DNA from: an uncultured Candidatus Methanogranum sp.
Lineage (GTDB): Archaea; Thermoplasmatota; Thermoplasmata; Methanomassiliicoccales; Methanomethylophilaceae
Assembly: GCA_963676045.1 (NCBI GenBank)
Contig: OY780938.1
Coordinates: 200,915-264,914, forward strand
Direction of reading: 5' to 3'
Length of the DNA stretch: 64,000 bases
Under the pieces are notes generated by a model, which saw nothing but the letters and a program-made list of their open reading frames with translations, searched no databases and had not been told where the DNA came from. Positions 10,174 through 30,344 of the stretch are shown piece by piece. The position numbers and the translations under genes are program-made. Numbering within the stretch: the stretch's first letter is position 1; each line of letters opens with the position of its first letter.

Positions 10174-11013
10174 TCATTTCCTGCACATGTCCAATATGCG
10201 CACTATCGATTGATGTCCAGGTGCCTGTTCGTTTATGGCGCCAGCGACGATCTTGGCCTCATCTATCTTGCCTTTCTCGATAAGACAAAACGCGAGGGTC
10301 TCCATCGCGCCTATGTGTTTGGGGTCTGTCTTCACAGCCTTAGTGGCATATCCGCCGGCAGCAGATATCTTTCCATTCATCCACATGAAATATGCCGCAA
10401 GGGCATTCGCATCTGCGGAGCTTTTATCATTTTTCAAGATCCCTTTTACAAAAGCCTCAGCTTCCTTACTGTGCCCCCATCTCAGAAGCACAGAGCAACG
10501 GCATCTTTGGACATAGAAATCCGAGGGGGACTCATCAAACAGCCTCCTGCTTTCCTCATCGGCTTCTTTGAACGAGTTCAATGAGCACAAGGCATCAATC
10601 ATGACGATCTCATCGTCCAAGGTCGGCTCTTGTATCAATTCGTATGAATCAATGGTAGCGTTGTAATCCATGAGTCCATAGGAAACGGACATGCGTTCTC
10701 TCTGTATGTCGTCTGTGATCGCAAGGTCCTCCAATGCAATATCCGCTTCTTCGAATCTCCCCAATCCTTTCAAGCCTTTGACCAGTTCGATCCTGGAGTT
10801 CTCATCGGATGGCAGATCATTCACGATCATCTCGAGGATGGCATTCATGTTTTCATCATCCTCTATGACCTTCAGGAGGGATGCGCATTTCAGAAGTGTC
10901 ATAGGTTCATCGCGATGATTGAAAGCGATCTGCATGACCTGCTGTGACGCGGCCATTTTGTTACCAGTGCCTATGTTCCTTTGAACTTCCTTGAAGGCCT
11001 GCTCCTTGTCCAT
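10174..11013 (-). CDS. TPR-repeat protein
   Basis: 279 aa, all-helical, with repeated ~34-aa A/Y/L-rich units. No catalytic motif seen. Confidence 0.6.
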   Translation of the reverse strand: MDKEQAFKEVQRNIGTGNKMAASQQVMQIAFNHRDEPMTLLKCASLLKVIEDDENMNAILEMIVNDLPSDENSRIELVKGLKGLGRFEEADIALEDLAITDDIQRERMSVSYGLMDYNATIDSYELIQEPTLDDEIVMIDALCSLNSFKEADEESRRLFDESPSDFYVQRCRCSVLLRWGHSKEAEAFVKGILKNDKSSADANALAAYFMWMNGKISAAGGYATKAVKTDPKHIGAMETLAFCLIEKGKIDEAKIVAGAINEQAPGHQSIVRILDMCRK

Positions 11014-11085
11014 GTCGAGGTCAATGCGGTCGTTCGAAATAAAGTTTCAGTTGAAACCTATGTATATCTTCACGTTGATTACACC

Positions 11086-12129
11086 ATGCTCATGATGCTA
11101 AGATCGATAAGGGTATACGGATTATTTGGTGAGTACGATTACAATGTTGATCTTAGTGACAACTATGTGACATTCATTCATTCCCAGAACGGATTTGGAA
11201 AATCAACCTTGATGAGGTTGGTCTACAATGTTTTTGTAGGGGACCTACAAGAGGTATATTCCACGCCATTCGATAGGTTGGATCTGGGATTCGATGACGA
11301 TACATTCCTTTTCGTCGAGAACAACAAAGACGATCTATTCATACAGATACAGAGGAACCACGTGGAGGAGGAGCTTCCAGTGGAGGATCTCAGGAAGATA
11401 ATGAAGGTGACCTACATGTCGCCAGAGCGCATGATATTGTCCAAGGATGATTGTCTCGTACCTGCATTGAACGTATATCTGGATGATCTTACGATAAAGA
11501 TGAAGGATGCGGTGGCAAATGCTAAGATCACAGAGAAGTCAGGAAAGACCCTATCCGATATCTCCGATTATGAGTTGGAATCCTGGTGCAAGGATCTGAA
11601 GGCCAAACTAGAATTCATAAAACAGGCAGGATTCGAACCAGAATTGCCTCCAAGCTACAGATTCCCCCCATCAAGGTTCGAGATAATGGGCTACAGGAAA
11701 GATTACATCGATCTGGCATTTTCCATCAAGGAATACACAGACAGATACTACACTCTGGCAGAATCGATAATAGTGTACATGGACATAGTGAACAACATAT
11801 TCGTCAATAAGGTCATCTATGTCAACGAAAGCGGGACACTCACAGCTAAGATGGATAATGGCATAACCTTACCGATATCGAAATTATCATCAGGGGAGAA
11901 GCAGATCCTTGTGATATTCTATCGTCTTCTATTCGATACGGATATAGGTTCGTTGGCCATAATCGATGAGCCCGAGATATCCCTTCATATAGCTTGGCAG
12001 CAGCAGATCGGTAAGATCTTCATGGATGTCGCAAAACTAAGGTCATTGCATATAATCGTGGCCACGCATTCTCCGCAGATAATCCATGATAATTGGGATC
12101 TCGCTGTGGAGCTGAAAGTGGAACAATGA
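11086..12129 (+). CDS. ABC/SMC-type ATPase, AriA-like
   Basis: Walker A SQNGFGKST, ABC signature LSSGEKQ, Walker B LAIIDEPE, H-loop VATHSP, and a ~200 aa helical insert between the lobes. I chose ATG 11086 because the listed TTG 10981 would overlap the divergent TPR gene. Confidence 0.8.
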   Translation: MLMMLRSIRVYGLFGEYDYNVDLSDNYVTFIHSQNGFGKSTLMRLVYNVFVGDLQEVYSTPFDRLDLGFDDDTFLFVENNKDDLFIQIQRNHVEEELPVEDLRKIMKVTYMSPERMILSKDDCLVPALNVYLDDLTIKMKDAVANAKITEKSGKTLSDISDYELESWCKDLKAKLEFIKQAGFEPELPPSYRFPPSRFEIMGYRKDYIDLAFSIKEYTDRYYTLAESIIVYMDIVNNIFVNKVIYVNESGTLTAKMDNGITLPISKLSSGEKQILVIFYRLLFDTDIGSLAIIDEPEISLHIAWQQQIGKIFMDVAKLRSLHIIVATHSPQIIHDNWDLAVELKVEQ

Positions 12130-12983
12130 TAGAGAATTTGACTGCGTCCGATATTGCAAACGAGATCTCAATGCTGAGGTCTGCGTTCAAAGGGACATTT
12201 GTAGTCGTAGAGGGTGTGACCGACAGCAGGCTCTATAGCAAATTCATAGCAAAGGAAGATGTGAGGATAGAGATAGCATATTCCAAGGACAATGTGAAGC
12301 GTTCTGTCATCGATTCAAGAGCCAACAGGGGCGACCTCAAGATAATCGGTATCGTGGACCCGGACCTCGATAGGTTGATGGGTATGGAATGCAGGCATCC
12401 GATATACACGACAGATAAGCGCGACATGGAAAGCATGATATTGTGCACAAAGGCTTTGGACGATCTTTTGACGGAATATTCCGATGCAGATGAATTGAAG
12501 GGTTTCGAGGAGAAACATGGGCCGATCAGGGATGTTGTGGCAAATGCAGCAGCTCCTTTGGGCATGTTGATGTACATATCGTATCGTGATAGCCTAGGAT
12601 TGTGTTTCAAAGACATCAATCATAGGTCTTTCATCAACAGGCGCACACTCGAGAATGACAGATACAAGATGATCGATGAGGTGTTCGCGCTCTCCAGGTC
12701 ACCTAGGATAGGGAAGAAGGACCTCATGGTGAGGCTCAATAAGGAGATGGAGGCGCTAGAGGACCAATGGTTAGCGGTGAGGGGTCATGATGCGGTGGAG
12801 ATATTGACGATAGGTCTGTCCGATTCCTTCGGTTCGTATAATGCATGCGGCATCAAATGCGGGCAGATCGGAGGGTCATTGCGTCTGGCTTTCTCTTATG
12901 ATTATTTCGCCGAGACGCGGCTATATGACGATACATTCCAATGGAGCAAGAAGACGAGCAATCCCCTTTGGGTCAGTCGTTGA
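12126..12983 (+). CDS. DUF4435/Toprim-like (OLD-family type) protein, AriB-like
   Basis: ATG 12126 overlaps the ATPase stop (ATGA). Toprim-like VVVEGVTDSRLY and the acidic IGIVDPDLD motif are present. About 285 aa. Confidence 0.75.
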   Translation: MIENLTASDIANEISMLRSAFKGTFVVVEGVTDSRLYSKFIAKEDVRIEIAYSKDNVKRSVIDSRANRGDLKIIGIVDPDLDRLMGMECRHPIYTTDKRDMESMILCTKALDDLLTEYSDADELKGFEEKHGPIRDVVANAAAPLGMLMYISYRDSLGLCFKDINHRSFINRRTLENDRYKMIDEVFALSRSPRIGKKDLMVRLNKEMEALEDQWLAVRGHDAVEILTIGLSDSFGSYNACGIKCGQIGGSLRLAFSYDYFAETRLYDDTFQWSKKTSNPLWVSR

Positions 12984-13206
12984 TGTTCATGTCCTCTTTG
13001 ACAATCCCGTTCGAGGTCTCCATTATCTTTTGAACTTTGCGATCGCTTTCTTCAAGGATCTTCTTGCAATGCTCTCTCAACGCGATCGCGTCCTCGTATA
13101 TCTTCAGGCTTTGGTCGAGGTCCAATCCACCGTTCTCTAATTTTTTGACCATCTCTTCTAATGCCGTTATGCTCTCTTCAAAGCTCATCTCTTCAATTCC
13201 TTTCAT
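12973..13206 (-). CDS. xseB: exodeoxyribonuclease VII small subunit
   Basis: 77 aa helical protein. FEESITALEEMVKKLENGGLDLDQSLKIYEDAIAL matches the XseB consensus. Confidence 0.85.
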   Translation of the reverse strand: MKGIEEMSFEESITALEEMVKKLENGGLDLDQSLKIYEDAIALREHCKKILEESDRKVQKIMETSNGIVKEDMNIND

Positions 13207-14468
13207 TTCAATCTGATCTCCTTGATCTTCGCGTCGATCTCCCCATCGCGCATACGTACGGTTATCTCCATATCCCTATCAATTGACTTCGCGGACGTCA
13301 ATGGACGTCCATCCTCATCGGTCACCATGCTGTATCCTCTTCCCAAGACCTTGTATGGGTCAAGGGACTCGAGACGGTTGTTAAGGTTCTCCATCTTCCT
13401 GATCTTCGATTGCATCAATTGATCCGATGCGTTTTTCAGTCTCATCTCTACGATGCCGTATCTCCTATGCATGACCTCTACAATATTCCTCAACGACGAT
13501 GCGAGTTTTGTGGAGATATGTTCCAAGAGCATGGTCTTCATAGCCACCATTTCCTCTGCGCGTCTCGGAGAGAGTTTAGAATCTATCTTGTTGAATCTGC
13601 TCCTCATCTTTTCGATACTGTAACTCAATGCCCTGTTGAGGCGTATGGTATCGTTGTTAAGTTGGTTAATTAGTTCTTTCTTATCTTTAAGTGCGATCTC
13701 GGCTGCAGCGGTGGGAGTGGCAGCACGGACGTCCGCGGCCAGATCTGAAAGTGTGAAATCGGACTCATGCCCTACAGCGGATATCGTTGGTATCTTCGAG
13801 GATGCTATCGCTCTCACAGTCGTCTCCTCGTTGAATGCCCAAAGGTCTTCCATCGAGCCTCCGCCTCTTCCAACAATTATAACGTCAACTCCTACGCGGT
13901 TCAGCAGTTCTATGCCTGCCGCAATTGATCTCGAGGCATCATCTCCTTGGACCTTTGCTGGGGCGAGGAGTATATCGGCGGGGAATCTTCTCCCAGTGGT
14001 CGTGACTATGTCATGAATAACAGCTCCGGTCTGTGATGTTACCACACCTATGACCTTCGGATAGATCGGCAATTTCCTCTTTCTTTTTTGATCGAAAAGT
14101 CCTTCTGCTTCGAGTTTCTTTTTCAATTTCTCGAATTCAGCGTAGAGATTGCCGACCCCGCCGCGTCTCATCGTCTGGACCATGAATTGATACGACCCTC
14201 TGTCCACGTATATGTCCACACTTCCAAAGGCGGTGATCTCCATGTTGTCACATGGTTCGAAATCTATTCTCGCCTTTGCCGATTTGAACATAACGCAACG
14301 TATCTCGCTGCCATTGTCCTTCATCGTGAAGTAAGAATGTCCAGAAGTGTAAAGTTTAAAATTGGAGATCTCGCCGGTGACCCAAACATCAGTTACACCT
14401 GGTGCGTTATTGATCAGATTCTTGACGCGTGTGTTCAACTGTGTGACATTAATGGTCTCTTCCATCAT
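13203..14468 (-). CDS. xseA: exodeoxyribonuclease VII large subunit
   Basis: N-terminal OB fold (VWVTGEISNFKLYTSGHSYFTMKD), catalytic core (VIGVVTSQTGAVIHD, VGRGGGSMEDLWAFN, ISAVGHESD) and a C-terminal coiled coil. Start set at ATG 14468, which gives a normal length and a divergent intergenic gap. Confidence 0.85.
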   Translation of the reverse strand: MMEETINVTQLNTRVKNLINNAPGVTDVWVTGEISNFKLYTSGHSYFTMKDNGSEIRCVMFKSAKARIDFEPCDNMEITAFGSVDIYVDRGSYQFMVQTMRRGGVGNLYAEFEKLKKKLEAEGLFDQKRKRKLPIYPKVIGVVTSQTGAVIHDIVTTTGRRFPADILLAPAKVQGDDASRSIAAGIELLNRVGVDVIIVGRGGGSMEDLWAFNEETTVRAIASSKIPTISAVGHESDFTLSDLAADVRAATPTAAAEIALKDKKELINQLNNDTIRLNRALSYSIEKMRSRFNKIDSKLSPRRAEEMVAMKTMLLEHISTKLASSLRNIVEVMHRRYGIVEMRLKNASDQLMQSKIRKMENLNNRLESLDPYKVLGRGYSMVTDEDGRPLTSAKSIDRDMEITVRMRDGEIDAKIKEIRLK

Positions 14469-15486: not shown

Positions 15487-16056
15487 TCAATATTTTCCCC
15501 TGTCCCTCATATGGAACATGAGGCAGGTGGACATCTTTGCAAGGTCAGAGGCGCGTCTGCTCCTCTTAACGTTGGCTGGATCGTTCCTCATGAGTCTGCG
15601 ATATGCTTTGCAAATAGTCTCAGCTTCCTCTGCTGGCTCTTTGCATTTAAGACTGATTGGCATCCTTGATGATATCGACGGCATTATGTTCGTTTCGAAA
15701 GTTATATCCCAGGGAGAACATATCATGTATCTTCCGAATTCCTGTCTGATGTCATAACAGGCGACATTCTCCCCTTTTATTATCTGAAGTACATCTTGTG
15801 CGACCTTTTTCTCAGGTTCTCCAGAATATATCATCTCCGGCATTATCTTGAAATTCTCAGATAGGTAGTCCAGTTTTTTCTTACCTAGGTTCTTAGGTTC
15901 ATAGAATACAAGACTGCTGTACACAATCTCAAAATCAAACGTTTCCAGATTCGCTTTGCAGACGCCAATGTCGATTATCTCATCATAGGGGTAGCCGTTC
16001 GGGCCTGTCGTCACGGTCTGCACTACGTAGATATCATCCGTCATGTTAAAGGTCAA
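15487..16056 (-). CDS. degenerate DnaQ/DEDD exonuclease-like protein, probably inactive
   Basis: DIYVVQTVTTGP aligns with LIYVLDTETTGL of the 24834-25478 exonuclease, but the D and E are replaced by Q and V. No Exo III HxxxD is visible. Confidence 0.45.
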   Translation of the reverse strand: MTFNMTDDIYVVQTVTTGPNGYPYDEIIDIGVCKANLETFDFEIVYSSLVFYEPKNLGKKKLDYLSENFKIMPEMIYSGEPEKKVAQDVLQIIKGENVACYDIRQEFGRYMICSPWDITFETNIMPSISSRMPISLKCKEPAEEAETICKAYRRLMRNDPANVKRSRRASDLAKMSTCLMFHMRDRGKY

Positions 16057-16096: not shown

Positions 16097-16522
16097 TCAT
16101 ATATCAAAGAATTCTTTAACGTTGGGTCTGAAAAGATAGTATATCACAACGATGCCCACTACTAGGGTAACGCCCGCGGTCCACTGCTCCATACCTAAAA
16201 GACTTATCAATGATGCTAATATCAAAAGGCCCACCAATATCAATGATATGTACCAGACGAAGGCCCATCCTTTGAAGAATCCAAATCCTATCAAGGCGGT
16301 CACGAATGCCATAATGAAGACCACCACGCTCATTTCATTCACATATTTCACTGCTTCATCGAGAGACATGTCTTTTGGAAGTATCCCTTGATCGATCAGC
16401 TCCTGTGCTATCTGATGCGCTATGTCCGGTATCAAACAGCTAACTGCCGAGATAACCAATGCGATCGTTGCGATAAAGAACAACGCGCCCAATATCGTTA
16501 TCAGAAGAGGCCTCTTGGTCAT
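16097..16522 (-). CDS. membrane protein, 4 TM
   Basis: 141 aa with four hydrophobic segments. No known motif. Confidence 0.5.
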   Translation of the reverse strand: MTKRPLLITILGALFFIATIALVISAVSCLIPDIAHQIAQELIDQGILPKDMSLDEAVKYVNEMSVVVFIMAFVTALIGFGFFKGWAFVWYISLILVGLLILASLISLLGMEQWTAGVTLVVGIVVIYYLFRPNVKEFFDI

Positions 16523-16664
16523 GTTGCCGTATAGACCATAAACCGTATAAGCTTTATTTCAAATGGATTGAATCTTCTTATTGTGTTTTAAATGTGGCAA
16601 TATCAATATTGTATCTGTTCTAATAAAGATTTTAAGAAAATTACACGAATTACAACTTTCAGTT

Positions 16665-16672
16665 TTTATAAT
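16665..16672 (+). promoter_or_regulatory. TATA-box-like element upstream of the addB-like gene
   Basis: tttataat lies 21 nt upstream of ATG 16694, suggesting a leaderless transcript and supporting that start. Confidence 0.35.
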
Positions 16673-16693
16673 GACAACTGCATCGCGGGAATC

Positions 16694-19360
16694 ATGCGGA
16701 AAGCAAAGGGCATCGATGAGATATACGATGAGGTGAAAGACTGCGATATTGTCATAACCAATGATGCCCCGCTTGCAACAGCTTTGAATTCCAGAGTCCG
16801 TAAGGCGAGCATTGGCAGTTTTGCATACACTCCAAGGCAGATCGCTGGTAAAGAAGCAGCGAAGGTATTAGGAAAGGGCACAATCGGCGATCTGAAGATC
16901 ATATCCGCCATCGCAGATGAAACAGGATTCGATTTCAAATACATACACGGTGAGCTTGAGAATATACGCACTATCCGCAGATACAGGGCCAATCCCGATA
17001 ATTATCTTTACTCAAGGGCGGCCAAAGAGGTTTACCGCTCTTTCAATGCATTGCCTACAATAGAGAAGGTCATGTCCAATTTCGACCCTTCGAAGAGTGA
17101 ATTTTATAAGGGCAGGAAGAGGATAGGCGTCATAGGATTGGATCTCTTCGATGATCTGGACAAACATTTCGTACCAATGGATTTCATAGAGGTCGACCTC
17201 TTTGAGAAGGGAGACTACGATATCGATACAATATACCAGATCGGTAATGATAGGCAGATAGCGGATAATATAGTCGAATTGATCAATCCAGATATGGTCG
17301 AGGATACTGCGATAGTGTTAGATACCGAGGGAGCTGTGGCTGATGCGATAAGGGCTGCCCTCTATAGGCGCGGATTGCCATTCAAGAATACTATGGCGGT
17401 CAGGGACCTTTCCCAAATAAGGGATTTTTTGCAATTCGTCACTTTGTCATTGAATTACGATACGATCAGGATAAGGCATGTGAGGGAGATATTCTCCAAT
17501 TACGGGGGATATCTAAGATCCAAACAGGATGAGTATCTGTTATCGAAAAGTCTGCAGAGCATAAAGAATGATAAGGCAATCAAGTTAGCAGAAATGATGA
17601 GGGACATACGCACAATGACCTTCGGAGAAGTCATGGAGAGCATCGTGCATCCTCTTCAGAGACCTCAGATAAAGATACTTTTGCAAGACCTGATGATGGC
17701 GGATAAGAAGGTAACTTCCAGATTGGTGAGCCAAATAACATATGCTGTCAACAATGTTACCGACCTTCATCATAATGAGCAGATCCCCGAAGATGAGAAG
17801 AGAGGAGTATTGCTTGTAAATTGCAATAATTCCGTATACATCGACAGGCCGTTCGTGATCTTCGTAGGTATCGGTCCGGAATGGTCGCCGAGCATAATTG
17901 GGAAGGAATACATAGATAGGGAAACCGAATTCGAGAGGGACCTTACAAGATTCTCCGTTCTGATACAACAGGGCAATTCAAGGCTATATGCGGTGAATTA
18001 TCTAAGAGGGGGAAAGCCTTCCAGGCCATGCAGTATATTTGAACAGATATATCCCGATAGAAAGATAGAGGGATTCGAGGATGTATGCAAGGAAAGCTCC
18101 CATCTCATAAAAGGCCCCTGGCACATTGTAGAGGAAAAGAAATTCTCAGATAAGGGAGAAGAGCATCTGGAACATGTACCAGTATATGATTGGAAATTCT
18201 CAAAGAGCACATACAATCTTTTTCGTCAGTGCCCAAGAGCATACATGTTCGGTGAATTGATGAGGACTCCCGATTCAGAATATACTGTGTTTGGAAGCAT
18301 AATTCACGAGTTCGCTGAACTTTACGTATGCTACCCAGAAATGGTGAGGAAGAAGGGAATAGACCATTATTTGGAGCTCATACAGGACAGGTATTCGGGG
18401 ATATCATGTGGGCAGATGGAATCCATCGATAGGACCGAGATGCGCGTAAGCATGTTGAATGTGATGAGATATCTCGATAGGACTGTCAAGGAGGTCTCGG
18501 ATCTGGACCGTAAGAATTCTGATAGGAAATATCCGAACGAATTGATGGTGCTGGAAGGTTGCGAGATGTACAGTCGGATAACTGAGACCGAATTCAGGTC
18601 TCAGAAAAACCCGATATTCGGTAATTTCGACCTGATACTCGGAGATACGATAACAGATTATAAGACAGGTAAGGCGACCGACATCAAGGGGATAAGAGAT
18701 AAGATGATCAGTCCGCAACATCATCCGGAATTTCAGCCAATGATATATCTGGCACTTTTATACCAATCATCAGGTAGATTGCCTTGCAGGTTCAATCAAT
18801 TCTACGTCAAAGATAGGCTCAGGGATTCGATAGAGATGGAAGATTTCGATGTTATGCTGAACATAAGGACGATCGAATTCATAGACATGAGCTTCGAAGA
18901 ATACATGCAAAGTCCAGATTGTCCGATAAGATCTGATTTCATGTCCAAGACCTATGAGAGATTCCTGATATCCTGGAACACTTTCATCGATACATTGTCT
19001 TCATATGGTTGGGACGATAAGGATAATTGGAGCAGGAATGAGAGATTGAAAGCATCAATACTTGATGCCATTGGTCTCAAACCGAACAAAACAAACATCG
19101 TGAATGTTGAAAGGGCCATGAATAAGGTTGTAAAAGGTACTGTAGGCATGATGTTCTGCGATGGCAATATTTTGACGATACCCAAGGACACGATGGAATC
19201 ATTTTTGATGAAACTGGATTCCGATCATGCAGATGCTTCAAGAATGACCGTTTCAAAGTTTCCAGGTTCACCTTCCAAAGATTGTTCCAAATGCAATTTC
19301 TTGAAGGTATGTACTGCAAGGATAGATGATGCGGAAGACGAGGGTGAGGAAGATGGATGA
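16694..19360 (+). CDS. AddB-like PD-(D/E)XK nuclease subunit with Fe-S cysteines, no Walker A
   Basis: Nuclease motif GNFDLILGDTITDYKTGK. Cas4/AddB-type cysteines are QCPRAY upstream plus a C-terminal CSKCNFLKVC (CX2CX5C). I saw no GxxxxGK[ST] anywhere in the protein. Confidence 0.75.
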   Translation: MRKAKGIDEIYDEVKDCDIVITNDAPLATALNSRVRKASIGSFAYTPRQIAGKEAAKVLGKGTIGDLKIISAIADETGFDFKYIHGELENIRTIRRYRANPDNYLYSRAAKEVYRSFNALPTIEKVMSNFDPSKSEFYKGRKRIGVIGLDLFDDLDKHFVPMDFIEVDLFEKGDYDIDTIYQIGNDRQIADNIVELINPDMVEDTAIVLDTEGAVADAIRAALYRRGLPFKNTMAVRDLSQIRDFLQFVTLSLNYDTIRIRHVREIFSNYGGYLRSKQDEYLLSKSLQSIKNDKAIKLAEMMRDIRTMTFGEVMESIVHPLQRPQIKILLQDLMMADKKVTSRLVSQITYAVNNVTDLHHNEQIPEDEKRGVLLVNCNNSVYIDRPFVIFVGIGPEWSPSIIGKEYIDRETEFERDLTRFSVLIQQGNSRLYAVNYLRGGKPSRPCSIFEQIYPDRKIEGFEDVCKESSHLIKGPWHIVEEKKFSDKGEEHLEHVPVYDWKFSKSTYNLFRQCPRAYMFGELMRTPDSEYTVFGSIIHEFAELYVCYPEMVRKKGIDHYLELIQDRYSGISCGQMESIDRTEMRVSMLNVMRYLDRTVKEVSDLDRKNSDRKYPNELMVLEGCEMYSRITETEFRSQKNPIFGNFDLILGDTITDYKTGKATDIKGIRDKMISPQHHPEFQPMIYLALLYQSSGRLPCRFNQFYVKDRLRDSIEMEDFDVMLNIRTIEFIDMSFEEYMQSPDCPIRSDFMSKTYERFLISWNTFIDTLSSYGWDDKDNWSRNERLKASILDAIGLKPNKTNIVNVERAMNKVVKGTVGMMFCDGNILTIPKDTMESFLMKLDSDHADASRMTVSKFPGSPSKDCSKCNFLKVCTARIDDAEDEGEEDG

Positions 19361-22229
19361 CCTGAACGCATCTCAAAGGAATATAGTGGATCATTTAGAC
19401 GGAATGATAGTGGTAGATGCGGGACCTGGCACAGGCAAGACCAAGACCATCGTCGAACGTTACATCAACATATTGGAACACGGGGTGGACCCAAAGGATG
19501 TGATACTGTTAACATTCACCCGCAACGCAGCACAAGAGATGGAGGACAGGATAAAGGGCAGGATGGTGCATTCCAAGAATTCGGAGAAATCCAAGGACGT
19601 GAGGGCAGGGACCTTCGATTCATTCTGTTTTTCAGTTATAATGGAATCTCCAGAGGCTGTAAGCAGGTTCTTCGGCATCAATGAAAGGTTGACGAGGAGT
19701 GCCAGGACAGTTGAGAACGAGACCCTCAATAAGGTATATTTCTCCGATTTCATGGATCGTTTCCTCGCAGATAAAGGAGTGGATTACGGCGCGTACTCGA
19801 TAATAGCGAGTCAGCATTATGCAGAATTATATGGTGTCATAAACAAGCTGATGTCGCGCGGTGTCACTCCTGTAAGAGATGGATGGTTCGGGGGGGATGA
19901 TGGCAAGGTCCTCTATGGAGATAAGGATCAGATGTCTCGCAGGATCAATGCGTTGAACGATATGTTAGATGGGAATGAGTATGAGCTTTCGAAGTACATG
20001 TCCAGCAATACCGATGGCAAATATGCGCCGATAGATCATGCATTCGATGGGACGATGCCCTTATCCGAAGAAATGATAAACGAGGCGATCAACGACGATC
20101 GGACCCTTTTGATCAAGCTCATACATGATGTCTACTACGATTTCATAAGGCGGTCGATAATAGATGATAGGCTCACATTCGGCCTGGTATCATCTTTTGC
20201 ATTCGTGGTGCTATATTCAGATGAGAACGTCAGAGATAGGATGCGCTGCAGATATCTCATGATCGACGAATTCCAAGATACCAACAGCAATCAGTTCATG
20301 ATCGCTTTGATGCTCTTGAAGGAACCAAACCTATGCGTTGTTGGCGATTGGAAGCAGGGCATATATGGCTTCAGATACGTTTCCACAGAGAACATAACAA
20401 GATTCCACGAAAAAGGCCGTAATTTAAGGACATTCCTGAATGAAGACAAGGCTCGTGTACCTTTTCATATCGATGAATGCGAATCAATGTCGCTGGATAT
20501 GAATTACAGAAGTTCCCAGCAGATCATCGACAAGGCATATGATGCCCTCAAGATACCCGCTTACAATGGAGAGGAAATAATATTGGGAAGTGTGAAAAGG
20601 ATATCCGCAGCAAAGGAATACCTCAACGAGCATACAGGTATCGAATGCATCCTGGCAACTTCATACGAGAATGAGATACAAGAGGTCCTAAGGAGGATAC
20701 AGAAGTATGTTTCCGATGGCAATTACGAGATATGCGATGACGGACCTCCACCGAGGGCAGTCCGTTATGATGATATTGCCATACTCTGTAGGAAGACCTC
20801 GCTGGCTAGAGGGATATTCGAAGCCGCATCATCCGCAGGGATACCGGCCTTCTTACAGGGCGATGTCGACATCATGGGTTCCAGAGAGGGAAAACTATTG
20901 CTCGCATGGCTCCGCTATATAAACAATGAGAGCGACCCATGGGGGATATGCACGATACTCGTGGATCAGGGGTATCCACTGTGCGAGATACGTGAGATCA
21001 ACGAAGCAGGGGCGTCAGCCATACCTTCGGAGATAAGGGAGAAGAGGCGGGAGCTGGTGTTGAAGAAGCGCAGGGTCACCAGTCTCATCTCGTCCATATT
21101 CGATTATTATCAATTGAACAATGACGTAACGCAGACAATAATCTCTGTATTGTCATCGGCGCATAGGAATTCATTGCTCACAGTGTCGGACATAATACGT
21201 ATGATCGAGACGGACATAGAGAGTTCAACGGTATATCCAGTGGACTCATTCCTCAATAGGCAGGCCGTCACTATACAGACGATACACAAATCGAAGGGTC
21301 TCGAATACCCGGTAGTCATCGTTGCAGGGTTCAACAAGAACTCATTCCCTAGTACAAAGGGAGATTCATCAGAATACATATTCAACGATATGACAGGGAT
21401 AAGATCGAAGAGCCAGGTATGTCCTATAGACGGGAACAACTTCAATATAATGGCATCATGGAAGACAAGACTGGTGATGAGATGCATAGACAAGGATTAC
21501 AGTGAGGAGAGAAGGCTCCTATTCGTCGCGATATCCAGGGCAAAGCAATATGTGGCGATCACATCATCCAACCCCTCCTCGTTCTTCGTCGGGCTGTCAG
21601 AGGGAGTAGGTATTACCAGTTCAGGAAAAGAAAAGGTATGTTTGCCGTACAATGAATATTCGGAGTCGATGATCGACCCTCCTGAGATCAAGGGATTCAC
21701 AAAGAGAAGGAGGAACATCGGCGTCCATGATATACTCCGTTTCGAAGGGGAGGATGCACCTCCAGAGGGTTCGGATCAGGTTTGCGGGAAAGGCATGGAA
21801 TACGGGATAAAGGTCCATCATGCCGCGGAGTTGATGGCGAGGGGTATACAGTTAGACAGCGAATATTCAAAGCTGCCTGAGGTCGAGGAGATCGGAAGGG
21901 TGCTTGATTCTGTGAAGGATGCAGTTTATATTGAATCGGAGATAGAATGCGCCTTGCCATTCAATGATATGAACATAACGTTGAGGGGCATAATAGACCT
22001 ATATGCGGAATTCTCAGACCACGTGGAGATACATGATTACAAGACGGACGTATCCGATGTGTTCGAGGGCGAGTACAAGATGCAGTTGAGCGTATATGCT
22101 CATGCAGCTGCAGAGGTCACAGGCAAGAAAGTACTATGCATAATCGATTATGTATCACAAGGTAGGAGCATATCGTTCTCTCCGTTGGAAAAAAGGTATA
22201 TAGAGATCCGTTTGGCGGATTACTCATAA
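19353..22229 (+). CDS. AddA/UvrD-like SF1 helicase with C-terminal RecB-type nuclease
   Basis: Helicase motifs GPGTGKT, LMIDEFQDTN, VGDWKQGIYGFR, NYRSS, TIHKSKGLEYPVV and LLFVAISRAK. C-terminal nuclease GIIDLY...EIHDYKTD...QLSVY. ATG 19353 overlaps the upstream stop by 8 nt; an alternative ATG lies at 19326. Confidence 0.85.
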   Translation: MDDLNASQRNIVDHLDGMIVVDAGPGTGKTKTIVERYINILEHGVDPKDVILLTFTRNAAQEMEDRIKGRMVHSKNSEKSKDVRAGTFDSFCFSVIMESPEAVSRFFGINERLTRSARTVENETLNKVYFSDFMDRFLADKGVDYGAYSIIASQHYAELYGVINKLMSRGVTPVRDGWFGGDDGKVLYGDKDQMSRRINALNDMLDGNEYELSKYMSSNTDGKYAPIDHAFDGTMPLSEEMINEAINDDRTLLIKLIHDVYYDFIRRSIIDDRLTFGLVSSFAFVVLYSDENVRDRMRCRYLMIDEFQDTNSNQFMIALMLLKEPNLCVVGDWKQGIYGFRYVSTENITRFHEKGRNLRTFLNEDKARVPFHIDECESMSLDMNYRSSQQIIDKAYDALKIPAYNGEEIILGSVKRISAAKEYLNEHTGIECILATSYENEIQEVLRRIQKYVSDGNYEICDDGPPPRAVRYDDIAILCRKTSLARGIFEAASSAGIPAFLQGDVDIMGSREGKLLLAWLRYINNESDPWGICTILVDQGYPLCEIREINEAGASAIPSEIREKRRELVLKKRRVTSLISSIFDYYQLNNDVTQTIISVLSSAHRNSLLTVSDIIRMIETDIESSTVYPVDSFLNRQAVTIQTIHKSKGLEYPVVIVAGFNKNSFPSTKGDSSEYIFNDMTGIRSKSQVCPIDGNNFNIMASWKTRLVMRCIDKDYSEERRLLFVAISRAKQYVAITSSNPSSFFVGLSEGVGITSSGKEKVCLPYNEYSESMIDPPEIKGFTKRRRNIGVHDILRFEGEDAPPEGSDQVCGKGMEYGIKVHHAAELMARGIQLDSEYSKLPEVEEIGRVLDSVKDAVYIESEIECALPFNDMNITLRGIIDLYAEFSDHVEIHDYKTDVSDVFEGEYKMQLSVYAHAAAEVTGKKVLCIIDYVSQGRSISFSPLEKRYIEIRLADYS

Positions 22230-29153: not shown

Positions 29154-30344
29154 GTGGCCACTTTCAAATTCATACACTGTTCAGATCTGCATCTTGGAAG
29201 CAGGGCATATGGTATCCTCAGCAGAGACCCGGAGTTAGGTAAGAGGATGACAGAGGCGACCTTCAAGTCGTTCTCAAGGATAATGGACCGTGCCATAAAG
29301 GACAATGTGGATTTTATCGTAATCTCGGGTGACATATTCGATGAGACTACGGAGACACCGGCGACACGTTATAGATTCTCTATGGAACTTTCAAGGACTG
29401 ACATCCCGATATTCATCTGTCTTGGAAATCATGACTATATGATGTCATGGACAGATAGCATACCTTATCCAAAGAATGTACATGTTTTCAATAAAGAACC
29501 AGAGAGCATCGTGCTAAGTTTATCAAACGGTGCTGTGGAGATAATCGGTAGGAGTTTTCCTTCAGCTCATTCCTCTTTGAATCCCATTCAAGACATAAAG
29601 GGTAAAGATGGTATCTTCTCTGTAGCGCTCGTCCATTGCAGTGTTGATGTGGTTGCAATGGATGACGAATACGGACCGTGTAGACTTTCAGATATGTTGA
29701 ACAGATCCGTGGATTATTGGGCCTTGGGACATATACACAAGAGGTCCGAATTGAGCAGGGATCCATGCGTGGTGTATCCCGGTAATATTCAGGGCAGGAG
29801 CAGGAGGGAGATAGGCCCCAAGGGTGCATATATGGTCCGCGTCACCAATGATCAGGTTCAAGGTCTGGAATTCTTCCCAACACAAGAGGTTCTATGGGAG
29901 GATGTTTGTTGCGATATATCCGACAAGACCATGAGTTCTTTGATGAAAGATATAATCGCCTCTGTTAAAAGAGGGTCCATTGTCAACCTGACATTATCCG
30001 GACGTGGTCTTCTAGATAACATATTACGTTTAGATACATATGCGGTAATACAACAGATAGAACTGATATCTGGTTGTTATTTAGCAGATGTTCGTATCAA
30101 TACCTATCCTTCAATAGATAGGAATGAGTTGTCAAAAGGTAATGATATACGTTCCAAGATAATACAATCATCAGATAGCATCTCTCTGCTTGGGCGGGAG
30201 GAGATCATAGATATGATATGCTCCACGAAACAATCAGCTTCGATAAGGTATATGCTGGAGTGGTTGGACGATGATGAATTGAAGGCTTTGGTCCACGATT
30301 CGGAAGCACTTCTCATCGATAAGCTGACGGGGGTATCGAGATGA
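29154..30344 (+). CDS. Mre11/SbcD-family metallophosphoesterase nuclease (YhaO-like)
   Basis: Phosphoesterase motifs HCSDLHLG, SGDIFD, LGNHD and LGHIH. 396 aa. The stop overlaps the next start (ATGA 30341-30344). Confidence 0.8.
   Translation: MATFKFIHCSDLHLGSRAYGILSRDPELGKRMTEATFKSFSRIMDRAIKDNVDFIVISGDIFDETTETPATRYRFSMELSRTDIPIFICLGNHDYMMSWTDSIPYPKNVHVFNKEPESIVLSLSNGAVEIIGRSFPSAHSSLNPIQDIKGKDGIFSVALVHCSVDVVAMDDEYGPCRLSDMLNRSVDYWALGHIHKRSELSRDPCVVYPGNIQGRSRREIGPKGAYMVRVTNDQVQGLEFFPTQEVLWEDVCCDISDKTMSSLMKDIIASVKRGSIVNLTLSGRGLLDNILRLDTYAVIQQIELISGCYLADVRINTYPSIDRNELSKGNDIRSKIIQSSDSISLLGREEIIDMICSTKQSASIRYMLEWLDDDELKALVHDSEALLIDKLTGVSR

What the first reader, a model, noticed from the sequence alone, without database searches (positions are those of the whole stretch)
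11044..12983. PARIS-like two-gene module (ABC ATPase + DUF4435/Toprim) in a methanogenic archaeon
Two genes are fused by an ATGA overlap (12126-12129). Gene 1 is an ABC/SMC-type ATPase with GFGKST, LSSGEKQ, LAIIDEPE and ATHSP motifs and a ~200-aa helical insert between its lobes. Gene 2 has the Toprim-like VVVEGVTD and DPDLD acidic motifs of DUF4435/OLD-family nucleases. This is the architecture of the bacterial PARIS abortive-infection system, in which the AriA ATPase scaffold releases the AriB Toprim effector; AbiL- and OLD-related modules are similar. Here it sits between trkAH plus a TPR gene and xseBA, with no integrase nearby. The ATPase is shorter than the bacterial AriA proteins I remember, so an archaeal version could differ in both trigger and target. 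A 6-bp palindrome, GTTTCA-GT-TGAAAC (11044-11057), lies just upstream of the TATA-like tgtatatc and could be an operator.
Basis: partly seen in the sequence, partly recalled or inferred. Interest (0 to 1): 0.7.

Follow-up and report, generated by a model that had tools for sequence, protein, structure and literature searches.

The report
PARIS-like nuclease pair fixed in archaea
Two overlapping genes really do encode relatives of the bacterial PARIS anti-virus system (an ATPase plus a Toprim nuclease), but here the pair is a shortened, strongly conserved, vertically inherited core feature of a whole group of gut methanogens, not a mobile defence island, so it may be hard-wired immunity or a repurposed cellular function.

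Summary
An ABC ATPase gene (conserved start 11092, end 12129) overlaps a DUF4435/Toprim gene (12126-12983) by ATGA. Both are homologous to PARIS AriA/AriB. AriA is the top PADLOC hit, the top PDB sequence hit and the top 16 fold hits. AriB is the only significant fold match for gene 2. All ATPase and Toprim catalytic residues are invariant.

In 67 of 71 informative loci, sampled without reference to the pair, it sits beside the same TPR gene. No empty site was found, and xseBA follows in 39 of 43 loci. Its divergence tracks TrkH, XseA and TPR (Mantel r 0.89-0.96). dN/dS is about 0.10-0.13, with no fast-evolving window. No relatives were found on viral contigs, and all neighbours are housekeeping genes.

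The ATPase is about 100-120 residues shorter than canonical AriA (447-464 aa); the loss lies in the middle sensor/oligomerisation region. It carries a lineage-specific invariant apex motif. The 6-bp palindrome is real but at chance frequency and not conserved.

Verdict: a new, fixed variant of a PARIS-family ATP-gated nuclease. Whether it serves immunity or a housekeeping role is unresolved.

The parts
11061..11068 (+). TATA-like box of the ATPase/nuclease operon. Its centre lies about 26 nt upstream of the conserved ATG at 11092, which suggests a leaderless or near-leaderless mRNA.
   Evidence: Read directly from the sequence. A T/A-rich box (TTCATATA-like) lies at the same distance from the ATG in many orthologous intergenic regions. 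The function is inferred.
11077..11082 (+). GATTAC motif between the TATA box and the start codon. It recurs as (C)GATTA(C) in many orthologues.
   Evidence: Seen by eye in the orthologous upstream sequences printed. Its role (initiator or regulatory site) is unknown.
11092..12129 (+). AriA-like ABC ATPase, 345 aa. An in-frame ATG at 11086 would give 347 aa. It has Walker A, signature, Walker B, D-loop and H-loop motifs. It also has a short helical insert with the invariant apex motif KDLKAKLxFIKxAGFEPxxPxxYRFPPSRFE.
   Evidence: Pfam AAA_21 6.4e-17 and AAA_15 1.5e-14. PADLOC AriA PDLC04164 2.3e-26. PDB top sequence hit is AriA 8ux9/8v45 at 1.6e-17. The AF2 model (pLDDT 90) gives AriA as the top 16 Foldseek hits, best E 7.7e-20. 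Invariant catalytic residues are listed.
12126..12129 (+). ATGA overlap of the ATPase stop codon and the nuclease start codon (translational coupling).
   Evidence: In orthologues the arrangement is a 4-11 nt overlap or a 10-nt gap.
12126..12983 (+). AriB-like DUF4435/Toprim nuclease, 285 aa. The Toprim acidic residues E29, D33, D78, D80, D100 and E102 and the RGHD motif (G220, D222) are invariant.
   Evidence: Pfam DUF4435 31.7 bits (gathering cutoff 27). PADLOC AriB 1.3e-12. The AF2 model (pLDDT 95.5) has only two significant PDB fold hits, both AriB: 8ux9_A at 4.8e-6 and 8v46_D at 2.1e-5, over the full length. Invariant columns are listed.
12973..12983 (.). 11-bp convergent overlap of the 3' ends of the nuclease gene and xseB.
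   Evidence: The same 8-21 bp tail-to-tail overlap occurs in L002, L003, L085, L086, L087 and L172.
10174..11013 (-). Lineage-specific TPR protein gene, transcribed divergently from the pair. It is the conserved left-hand neighbour and was used as the anchor for sampling without reference to the pair.
   Evidence: Pfam TPR_19 2.6e-10. It is adjacent to the pair in 67 of 71 informative metagenomic loci.
12973..14468 (-). xseB (12973-13206) and xseA (13203 to about 14465), exonuclease VII. This is the conserved right-hand neighbour.
   Evidence: Exonuc_VII_S and Exonuc_VII_L Pfam hits on the orthologues. xseB is adjacent to the pair in 39 of 43 loci that have enough flanking sequence.

Best explanation
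The two genes encode a PARIS-family complex: an AriA-like ABC ATPase and an AriB-like two-metal Toprim nuclease. The pair was acquired once, then fixed as a single-copy core chromosomal module in the Methanomethylophilus/Methanoplasma/BRNA1 clade of the Methanomassiliicoccales. It has been inherited vertically at one locus (TPR | pair | xseBA) under strong purifying selection.

Inferred mechanism, by homology with E. coli PARIS: the ATPase oligomer holds the nuclease inactive. When a cue is recognised, an ATP-dependent change releases or activates the nuclease. The nuclease then cuts nucleic acid, most likely RNA or tRNA as AriB does, and arrests growth or translation.

What differs from canonical PARIS: the ATPase lacks about 100-120 residues of the middle region. 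In E. coli AriA that region carries the trigger-binding pore loops and IS1, and the hexamerisation insert IS2. In its place is a short helical hairpin whose apex motif is as conserved as Walker B and has the lowest dN/dS in the protein. The cue is therefore most likely a conserved one. It could be a host factor or process that the system guards, or a physiological signal. It is unlikely to be a fast-evolving viral protein bound directly.

Shown here: homology, intact catalytic sites, fixation, synteny, co-divergence with host genes and purifying selection. Inferred: complex formation, gating, substrate, and the nature of the cue. I rate 'hard-wired sentinel or guard immunity' and 'exapted housekeeping role' as about equally likely within this explanation.
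For: Homology.

Catalytic residues: invariant across 51-53 orthologues. All 45 complete metagenomic pairs lack internal stops and keep the motifs, apart from one H-loop His-to-Gln change.

Fixation and synteny: 11 of 11 individually inspected contexts (the window and the loci) have the pair next to xseBA. In the TPR-anchored sample, taken without reference to the pair, 67 of 71 informative loci have the pair and no empty site was found. xseB is adjacent in 39 of 43.

Vertical descent: identity to M. termitum is 55.9% for the AriA-like and 55.4% for the AriB-like protein, against TrkA 55.8%, XseA 57.2% and XseB 59.7%. Mantel r is 0.89-0.96 against TrkH, XseA and TPR, p=0.001.

Selection: median dN/dS is 0.10 (ATPase) and 0.13 (nuclease), against 0.03 for XseA and 0.20 for TrkH. 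No 30-codon window exceeds 0.18. The ATPase insert 166-240 is lowest at 0.03-0.045.

No mobile-element signal: GC content is native, neighbours are housekeeping, and no relatives were found in IMG/VR or the phage collection.

Contrast with relatives: bacterial relatives at 26-38% identity pair with 447-460-aa ATPases (P0106 and P0107 at 34% and 28% with 454- and 450-aa partners; the B. mycoides plasmid copy at 30.5% with a 447-aa partner). Some sit beside type I R-M or a recombinase, or on plasmids.

ATPase shortening: the shortfall maps to the middle of the protein. IS1, IS2 and pore-loop coordinates come from PMC11464382.
Against: No experiment exists, and no complex model could be run. The substrate and the gating are extrapolated from an E. 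coli system whose AriB is only 14% identical; a sequence profile does not detect that AriB at all.

The mapping of the missing residues onto IS1/IS2 is uncertain. The alignment to L088 gives one block of about 80 aa, while the alignment to an E. coli-like AriA spreads the gaps.

Universality was tested only in lineages that carry the TPR or XseA orthologue.

Four TPR loci end before the pair could be seen.

Many dS values exceed 1, so the dN/dS figures are approximate.

The adjacency to xseBA/addBA may only reflect a block of at least 20 kb of conserved gene order and need not indicate a functional link.
Confidence: 0.6

Rival explanations
1. Classical PARIS abortive-infection defence. The ATPase binds a viral anti-defence protein directly and releases the tRNA-cleaving nuclease. 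The system simply happens to be widely retained in this lineage.
For: Both subunits have PARIS proteins as their closest sequence and structure relatives. The catalytic sites are intact. The nearest bacterial relatives are in defence or mobile contexts. DefenseFinder- or PADLOC-style rules (AAA_15/21 plus DUF4435) would call it PARIS.
Against: The distribution is the opposite of an accessory defence system. It has a fixed locus, no empty sites and co-diverges with housekeeping genes. No fast-evolving surface exists, and the putative sensor insert is the most constrained part. In PARIS the trigger-binding pores are poorly conserved (PMC11464382). About 100-120 residues of the sensor/oligomerisation region are missing. 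There are no viral or mobile-element copies.
Confidence: 0.22
2. A selfish toxin-antitoxin-like addiction module. It persists because losing the ATPase unleashes the nuclease, and it gives the host no benefit.
For: The two-gene operon has translational coupling. PDB depositors name AriA an 'antitoxin'. AAA_21 is described in Pfam as a putative AbiEii toxin domain of type IV TA systems.
Against: Addiction modules are usually multi-copy, mobile and often decayed. This pair is single-copy at one locus, and all 45 complete copies are intact with dN/dS around 0.1 in both genes across about 50% protein divergence. In E. coli, AriB alone is only modestly toxic and needs AriA for activation (PMC11464382).
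Confidence: 0.06
3. An ABC-transporter ATPase with an unrelated neighbour. This is what public annotations imply (BtuD, EcfA2, cytochrome c biogenesis ATPase).
For: Names given by sources. There are weak ABC_tran and NCBIfam transporter hits, all far below their cutoffs.
Against: ABC_tran scores 22.5 bits, below its 25-bit cutoff. No NCBIfam transporter model comes near its cutoff. There is no permease partner. The fold and sequence place it with AriA, Rad50 and PtuA. The partner is a Toprim nuclease.
Confidence: 0.01

Closest known systems
PARIS (AriA/AriB) of E. coli B185 P4-like satellites. Structures 8UX9 and 8V45-8V49. References PMC11464382, PMC10802264, PMC12409363.
   Same: The gene order is the same: an ABC ATPase followed by an overlapping DUF4435/Toprim gene. 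AriA is the best sequence and fold match for gene 1, and AriB is the only significant fold match for gene 2. The Toprim acidic set corresponds (E26/D30/D88/E90/E122 in E. coli against E29/D33/D78/D80/E102 here). All ATPase motifs are present. A near-invariant SK(D/E)NV(K/R)(K/R) helix lies where E. coli AriB has the K60/K64 'tweezers'; this positional correspondence is inferred.
   Different: The ATPase is 345 aa, not 464; the deficit lies in the middle region that holds IS1, IS2 and the pore loops. It has a new invariant apex motif (YRFPPSRFE). AriB identity is only 14%, and a sequence profile does not detect E. coli AriB. The pair is chromosomal, core, syntenic and vertically inherited across an archaeal clade, not located in mobile-element hotspots. 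There is no hypervariable sensor surface. The trigger, oligomeric state and substrate are untested.
Canonical-length bacterial AAA_15/21 + DUF4435 pairs. Examples: L088 contig beside type I R-M, Bacillus mycoides plasmid L173, Clostridium botulinum WP_085293401.
   Same: These are the closest relatives outside the archaeal clade (26-38% identity for the nuclease, 29% for the ATPase of L088). The operon layout and nuclease length are the same.
   Different: Their ATPases are 447-454 aa. They sit in defence-island, plasmid or recombinase contexts and are sporadically distributed. They lack the archaeal apex motif.
OLD-family nucleases and Gabija GajA
   Same: An ABC ATPase is combined with a Toprim nuclease. 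There are weak ATPase-domain hits (GajA 3.2e-9; OLD 6p74 at 0.0049).
   Different: In these families the two domains are fused in one polypeptide with a Toprim_OLD domain. Here there are two proteins, and the nuclease matches DUF4435/AriB, not Toprim_OLD.
Septu and retron PtuA, and Rad50
   Same: The ATPase fold with a coiled-coil insert is shared. PtuA HMM hits reach 4.5e-21, and Rad50 and PtuA follow AriA in the fold ranking.
   Different: The partner nuclease is different (HNH PtuB, or Mre11). Those matches cover only the C-terminal ATPase lobe.
AbiL (AbiLi/AbiLii)
   Same: It is also an ABC ATPase plus Toprim two-gene anti-phage system, grouped with PARIS in PMC11464382.
   Different: The AbiLi hit is weak (4.5e-9), and gene 2 has no AbiLii hit.

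Membership tests
PARIS (AriA/AriB) | Adjacent, co-oriented genes: an AAA_15/AAA_21 ABC ATPase followed by a DUF4435 protein (the DefenseFinder/PADLOC rule) | tested here: met
   AAA_21 63 bits, AAA_15 54.9 bits and DUF4435 31.7 bits, all above their gathering cutoffs. PADLOC AriA 2.3e-26 and AriB 1.3e-12. The genes overlap by ATGA.
PARIS (AriA/AriB) | The ATPase is an AriA homologue with intact Walker A, signature, Walker B and H-loop motifs | tested here: met
   The top PDB sequence hit is AriA at 1.6e-17. The top 16 fold hits are AriA. The motifs are invariant in 51 sequences.
PARIS (AriA/AriB) | The effector has the AriB fold (Toprim plus a helical DUF4435 C-domain) with the two-metal acidic residues | tested here: met
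   The only significant PDB fold matches are AriB 8ux9_A and 8v46_D, over the full length, with TM 0.54-0.57. E29, D33, D78, D80, D100 and E102 are invariant. Sequence-level similarity to E. coli-type AriB is not detectable.
PARIS (AriA/AriB) | AriA insertion sequences IS1 (trigger recognition) and IS2 (hexamerisation), and a propeller-shaped A6B3 assembly | tested here: inconclusive
   The ATPase is about 117 aa shorter, and all of the deficit lies between the N-lobe and the signature motif. The exact correspondence to IS1/IS2 is not resolved. The oligomeric state could not be modelled because no structure-prediction jobs remained.
PARIS (AriA/AriB) | Accessory, patchy distribution in mobile-element hotspots or defence islands (typical of the family, not strictly defining) | tested here: not met
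   The pair is present in 67 of 71 loci sampled without reference to it, with no empty site. Distance matrices correlate with those of housekeeping genes (r 0.89-0.96). Neighbours are housekeeping genes, and no viral copies were found.
PARIS (AriA/AriB) | Anti-phage activity triggered by a viral anti-restriction protein, with tRNA cleavage by released AriB | not testable with these tools
   This needs infection, toxicity and tRNA-sequencing experiments.
OLD family / Gabija GajA | A single polypeptide with an N-terminal ABC ATPase and a C-terminal Toprim_OLD domain | tested here: not met
   There are two separate ORFs. Gene 2 has no Toprim_OLD Pfam hit, and the GajA hit covers only the ATPase lobe.
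AbiL | An AbiLi ATPase plus an AbiLii partner | tested here: not met
   AbiLi scores 4.5e-9, far weaker than AriA. Gene 2 has no AbiLii hit.
ABC transporter ATPase (BtuD / EcfA / CcmA, as in public annotation) | Score above the family cutoff, and a membrane permease partner | tested here: not met
   ABC_tran scores 22.5 bits against a 25-bit cutoff. The best NCBIfam transporter hit is 28.7 bits against a cutoff of 264.85. There is no adjacent permease.

The most novel reading that the evidence does not exclude
A PARIS-derived ATPase-nuclease pair has been domesticated in an archaeal lineage. It lost the viral-trigger sensor, gained an invariant partner-binding apex, and now acts as a core cellular factor. 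Possible roles are a regulated tRNA/RNA-processing or stress-arrest nuclease, or a checkpoint coupled to the bacterial-type repair genes around it (ExoVII, AddAB). This would be an example of an abortive-infection system exapted into housekeeping and retained across family-level divergence.
Probability: 0.3. Interest if true: 0.75.

Novelty: new variant of a known kind. Interest (0 to 1): 0.6.

Why it matters
Defence systems are normally accessory genes with rapid turnover. This PARIS homologue is fixed at one locus, co-diverges with housekeeping genes and evolves slowest in its supposed sensor. That makes it an unusual natural experiment.

Either outcome is informative. It may show how an abortive-infection module becomes hard-wired, for example by guarding a conserved host process. 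Or it may show how such a module is repurposed for a cellular function.

There is also a practical point. DefenseFinder- or PADLOC-style rules would probably label this pair 'PARIS' in these methanogen genomes where it occurs, while genome annotations call the ATPase a transporter subunit. Both labels may mislead.

The shortened ATPase is a natural minimal AriA, which could help separate the gating core from the trigger-sensing and hexamerisation inserts.

I found no paper that mentions this module.

Tried and rejected
1. The single genome-contig scan, with XseA as a pair-independent anchor, was swamped by bacterial XseA (80 loci at 36-43% identity, only one of them a Thermoplasmatota archaeon). 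It gave no denominator for the order. It did show that none of those 80 loci carries the pair within the flanks fetched (up to 10 kb).

2. An exact-sequence look-up of the window's own nuclease found no record.

3. Neither a sequence search nor a profile search of the PDB with the nuclease found AriB. Only the fold search did.

4. hhalign of the nuclease profile against an E. coli-type AriB from Pseudoalteromonas gave only 37% probability.

5. Precise mapping of the missing ATPase residues onto IS1/IS2 failed because two alignments disagree.

6. The palindrome as an operator was rejected: it is at chance frequency and is not conserved.

7. The sigma-70 promoter and terminator scan gave nothing above the shuffled expectation, and it does not apply to archaea anyway.

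8. Rfam and tRNA scans of the window were empty.

9. Viral-contig, phage and literature searches for this module were all empty.

10. I considered a functional link to xseBA. I do not claim it, because the whole block of at least 20 kb is syntenic and four loci keep the pair without xseBA.

Full report
1. WHAT IS THERE

Two + strand genes are present as described. The first ORF frame (10981-12129) has in-frame ATG codons at 11086, 11092 and 11095. In an alignment of 51 orthologues most proteins begin MMLK/MKLR. In orthologous upstream regions the window's 11086 ATG aligns with non-ATG sequence, while 'CTCATG' (11092) is conserved. I therefore place the start at 11092, giving 345 aa.

The second gene is 12126-12983 (285 aa). 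It overlaps the first by ATGA at 12126-12129. Its stop overlaps the stop of the convergent xseB gene by 11 bp (12973-12983).

The helical insert is about 112 residues (127-238 in the AF2 model), not about 200.

2. HOMOLOGY TO PARIS IS REAL FOR BOTH SUBUNITS

Gene 1 matches Pfam AAA_21 (6.4e-17) and AAA_15 (1.5e-14). Its best PADLOC hit is a dedicated AriA model (PDLC04164, 2.3e-26). Its best PDB sequence hit is AriA of the E. coli PARIS complex (8ux9/8v45, 1.6e-17). Its AF2 model (pLDDT 90) has AriA chains as the top 16 Foldseek hits (best E 7.7e-20), followed by Rad50 and retron PtuA.

Gene 2 passes the Pfam DUF4435 gathering threshold (31.7 bits against 27) and hits PADLOC AriB (1.3e-12). 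At sequence level it is too far from E. coli AriB to be detected. Its AF2 model (pLDDT 95.5) has exactly two significant PDB matches, both AriB (8ux9_A at 4.8e-6, 8v46_D at 2.1e-5). The matches cover the full length at 14% identity.

Across 53 orthologues E29, G30, D33, G75, D78, D80, D100, E102, G220 and D222 are invariant. The acidic residues correspond in order to the E26/D30/D88/E90/E122 two-metal Toprim site of AriB (PMC11464382).

Across 51 ATPase orthologues the Walker A (N35, G36, G38, K39), signature (S268, G270, E271), Walker B (D294-E297), D-loop His301 and H-loop (T327, with H328 in at least 90% of sequences) residues are invariant or nearly so.

OLD/Gabija, AbiL and transporter assignments fail their defining features.

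3. THE DISTRIBUTION IS THE OPPOSITE OF A DEFENCE ISLAND

The nuclease has 107 clusters of close homologues. Nearly all named ones are from Methanomassiliicoccales, almost all are about 285 aa, and identity grades smoothly from 74% to 41%. The best 120 ATPase homologues behave the same way, most at 343-349 aa.

In Ca. Methanoplasma termitum the order is trkA-trkH-TPR(-)-ATPase-DUF4435-xseB(-)-xseA(-), identical to the window. BRNA1 has the pair next to xseBA. Three contigs chosen through XseA, because their lengths did not appear in the pair's hit lists, all carry the pair. The two most divergent clade members (41-43% identity) have the same order as far as addB/addA.

For a larger sample I anchored a metagenome scan on the lineage-specific TPR neighbour, so that sampling did not depend on the pair. 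Of the 80 loci:
- 45 contain the complete pair.
- 22 end inside the pair.
- 9 have too little flank to judge.
- 4 have 1.0-2.1 kb of another gene before the contig ends.

That gives 67 of 71 informative loci with the pair, and no locus where TPR abuts xseB. One of the four undetermined loci (L099) carries a YhcG-like insertion. L110 has part of a related gene in the same position, with the ATPase beyond it.

xseB is adjacent to the pair in 39 of 43 loci that have room for it. Four loci (L120, L126, L154, L166) keep the pair but have no xseBA nearby. All 45 complete pairs lack internal stops and keep the catalytic motifs, apart from one H-loop His-to-Gln change.

4. VERTICAL DESCENT UNDER HOUSEKEEPING-LEVEL CONSTRAINT

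Identity to M. termitum is 55.9% (ATPase) and 55.4% (nuclease), against TrkA 55.8%, XseA 57.2%, XseB 59.7%, TPR 48.2% and TrkH 44.5%.

For 23 genomes, pairwise distance matrices of the two proteins correlate with those of TrkH, XseA and TPR (Mantel r 0.89-0.96, p=0.001). Mean distances (0.45 and 0.485) fall between XseA (0.375) and TrkH (0.557).

NG86 dN/dS medians are 0.10 (ATPase), 0.13 (nuclease), 0.03 (XseA), 0.20 (TrkH) and 0.12 (TPR). Many dS values exceed 1, so these figures are approximate. The unsaturated pairs (dS below 1) give 0.04-0.07 for both genes.

In a sliding-window analysis no 30-codon window exceeds 0.18. The ATPase helical insert (166-240) is the most constrained part, at 0.03-0.045. 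Column conservation of residues 166-195 (0.79-0.81) is close to that of Walker B (0.83).

GC content matches the flanks. The large ORFs scanned between window positions 91 and 30344 are housekeeping genes: UbiD, sulfite-reductase-like, PurA, Trm1, NadA, TrkAH, ExoVII, AddBA-like, P-type ATPase and cobalamin genes. None is an integrase or transposase. The pattern-based IMG/VR scan and the phage collection contain no relative.

5. HOW IT DIFFERS FROM CANONICAL RELATIVES

Outside the archaeal clade, full-length homologues of the nuclease are abundant: 2090 cluster representatives at E<=1e-3 and 111 at E<=1e-30. The few that could be named are bacterial, from Clostridium botulinum, C. sporogenes and Tumebacillus, at 28-38% identity.

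Where context could be read, these relatives pair with longer ATPases, and some sit in typical accessory settings:
- L088: 454-aa ATPase, beside a type I R-M system.
- L089: 450-aa ATPase.
- Bacillus mycoides plasmid: 447-aa ATPase, beside XerS and another ATPase pair.
- Pseudoalteromonas: 460-aa ATPase.

The archaeal ATPase is about 100-120 residues shorter. The phmmer alignment to E. coli AriA is collinear to residue 83 and resumes at residue 350, which corresponds to query residue 251. So the deficit lies wholly in the middle of the protein.

Against L088 it appears as one block of about 80 residues between query residues 80 and 93. Against an E. coli-type AriA the gaps are spread out.

In E. 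coli AriA this middle region holds the pore loops (113-124, 161-174), IS1 (122-180, predicted trigger recognition) and IS2 (242-289, hexamerisation) (PMC11464382). I infer, but could not show, that the sensor and oligomerisation inserts are reduced.

The invariant apex motif KDLKAKLxFIKxAGFEPxxPxxYRFPPSRFE lies in and next to the loop between the two long helices of the insert. The YRFPPSRFE part has no counterpart in the L088 ATPase.

6. REGULATION

The palindrome at 11044-11057 is real but unremarkable. There are 27 perfect 6+6 inverted repeats with a 2-nt spacer in the window, and about 50 orthologous intergenic regions have no counterpart. Its left arm abuts what aligns with the TPR gene's own A/T box.

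What is conserved is a TATA-like box (window 11061-11068) followed by (C)GATTA(C) (11077-11082), about 26 nt from the box centre to the conserved ATG. This is compatible with a leaderless archaeal transcript (an inference).

The TPR|ATPase spacer has taken up different insertions in different lineages.

7. INTERPRETATION

At the molecular level the best model remains that of PARIS: an ATPase scaffold gates a two-metal Toprim nuclease. In E. coli the released nuclease cleaves tRNA anticodon loops (PMC11464382, PMC12409363).

This is a single-copy, fixed, vertically inherited module. Its putative sensor is the slowest-evolving part, which points to a conserved cue. That cue could be a guarded host process or a physiological signal. 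A rapidly evolving viral ligand is less likely.

I cannot separate 'hard-wired immunity' from 'exapted housekeeping function' with these tools, and I give them similar weight. The accessory-defence reading gets about 0.2, and the selfish addiction module gets less.

The adjacency to ExoVII and AddAB-like genes is suggestive. These genes appear to be of bacterial type; XseA is 36-43% identical to the XseA of Clostridia and other bacteria. However, the adjacency is part of a larger syntenic block, so I do not claim a functional link.

8. NOVELTY AND SCORE

No paper in the searchable library mentions this module. It is a new variant of a known kind: the family membership is clear, but the evolutionary mode is atypical and the sensor subunit is trimmed.

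Interest is 0.6. A specialist would be surprised by a PARIS homologue that behaves as a core gene, and the question is directly testable. No function has been demonstrated, and the breadth of the pair across the whole order remains to be established.

Noticed in passing
window 12973-12983; also L002, L003, L085-L087, L172: The nuclease gene and xseB converge, and their 3' ends overlap by 8-21 bp in every inspected genome. There is no room for a terminator, so the two transcripts should be antisense at their ends.
   Followed up: partly
window 13203-14468 and 16592-22229: This archaeon carries bacterial-type repair genes. XseA is 36-43% identical to the XseA of Clostridia and other bacteria (Oscillospiraceae most often). 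The region also holds an AddB-like PD-(D/E)XK gene and an AddA-like UvrD/PD-(D/E)XK gene. This suggests old transfer from bacteria. None of the 80 XseA loci fetched in that scan has the PARIS-like pair within the flanks fetched (up to 10 kb).
   Followed up: partly
window 11014-11091; L003, L090, L095, L099, L110, L115, L117, L122, L124: The short divergent spacer between the TPR gene and the ATPase gene is an insertion hot spot. Different lineages carry different insertions: a gene of about 1.5 kb (449 aa in BRNA1), a YhcG/DUF1016-like nuclease, a 288-aa membrane protein, or 1.7 kb of other sequence.
   Followed up: partly
window 11061-11082: A conserved TATA-like box plus a (C)GATTA(C) motif lies upstream of the ATPase start in many orthologues. 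The role of the second motif is unknown.
   Followed up: partly
P0158, P0110, P0176, P0503 (orthologues of window 11092-12129): Public records name the ATPase as BtuD, EcfA2 or a cytochrome c biogenesis ABC ATPase. These transporter names are not supported by any model cutoff or by gene context.
   Followed up: yes
L138 (ATPase, C-terminal region): One lineage has Gln instead of the H-loop His (ATQSP instead of ATHSP). This could be a real catalytic variant or an assembly error.
   Followed up: no
L120, L126, L154, L166: One subclade keeps trkH-TPR-pair but has no xseBA within 2.6-6 kb. In comparisons involving this group the nuclease diverges more than the ATPase (58-65% against 75-84% identity).
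   Followed up: no
L088 6637-8888; L173 3655-5930: Canonical-length bacterial relatives sit in typical accessory contexts. One is beside a type I R-M system. The other is on a Bacillus mycoides plasmid beside XerS and a second AAA-ATPase pair.
   Followed up: partly
window 1-64000: No tRNA gene and no Rfam family at gathering threshold were found in the whole 64-kb window.
   Followed up: no
window 15487-16056 (-) and 16097-16522 (-): Two small genes with no Pfam hit lie between xseA and addB. Similarly sized unannotated genes occupy that interval in M. termitum, BRNA1 and metagenomic loci, so they may be conserved components of unknown function. Homology between them was not tested.
   Followed up: no
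window 29154-30344: A Metallophos (Mre11-like) gene lies about 16 kb downstream. The genome may therefore also keep an archaeal-type Mre11/Rad50 alongside the bacterial-type AddAB and ExoVII.
   Followed up: no
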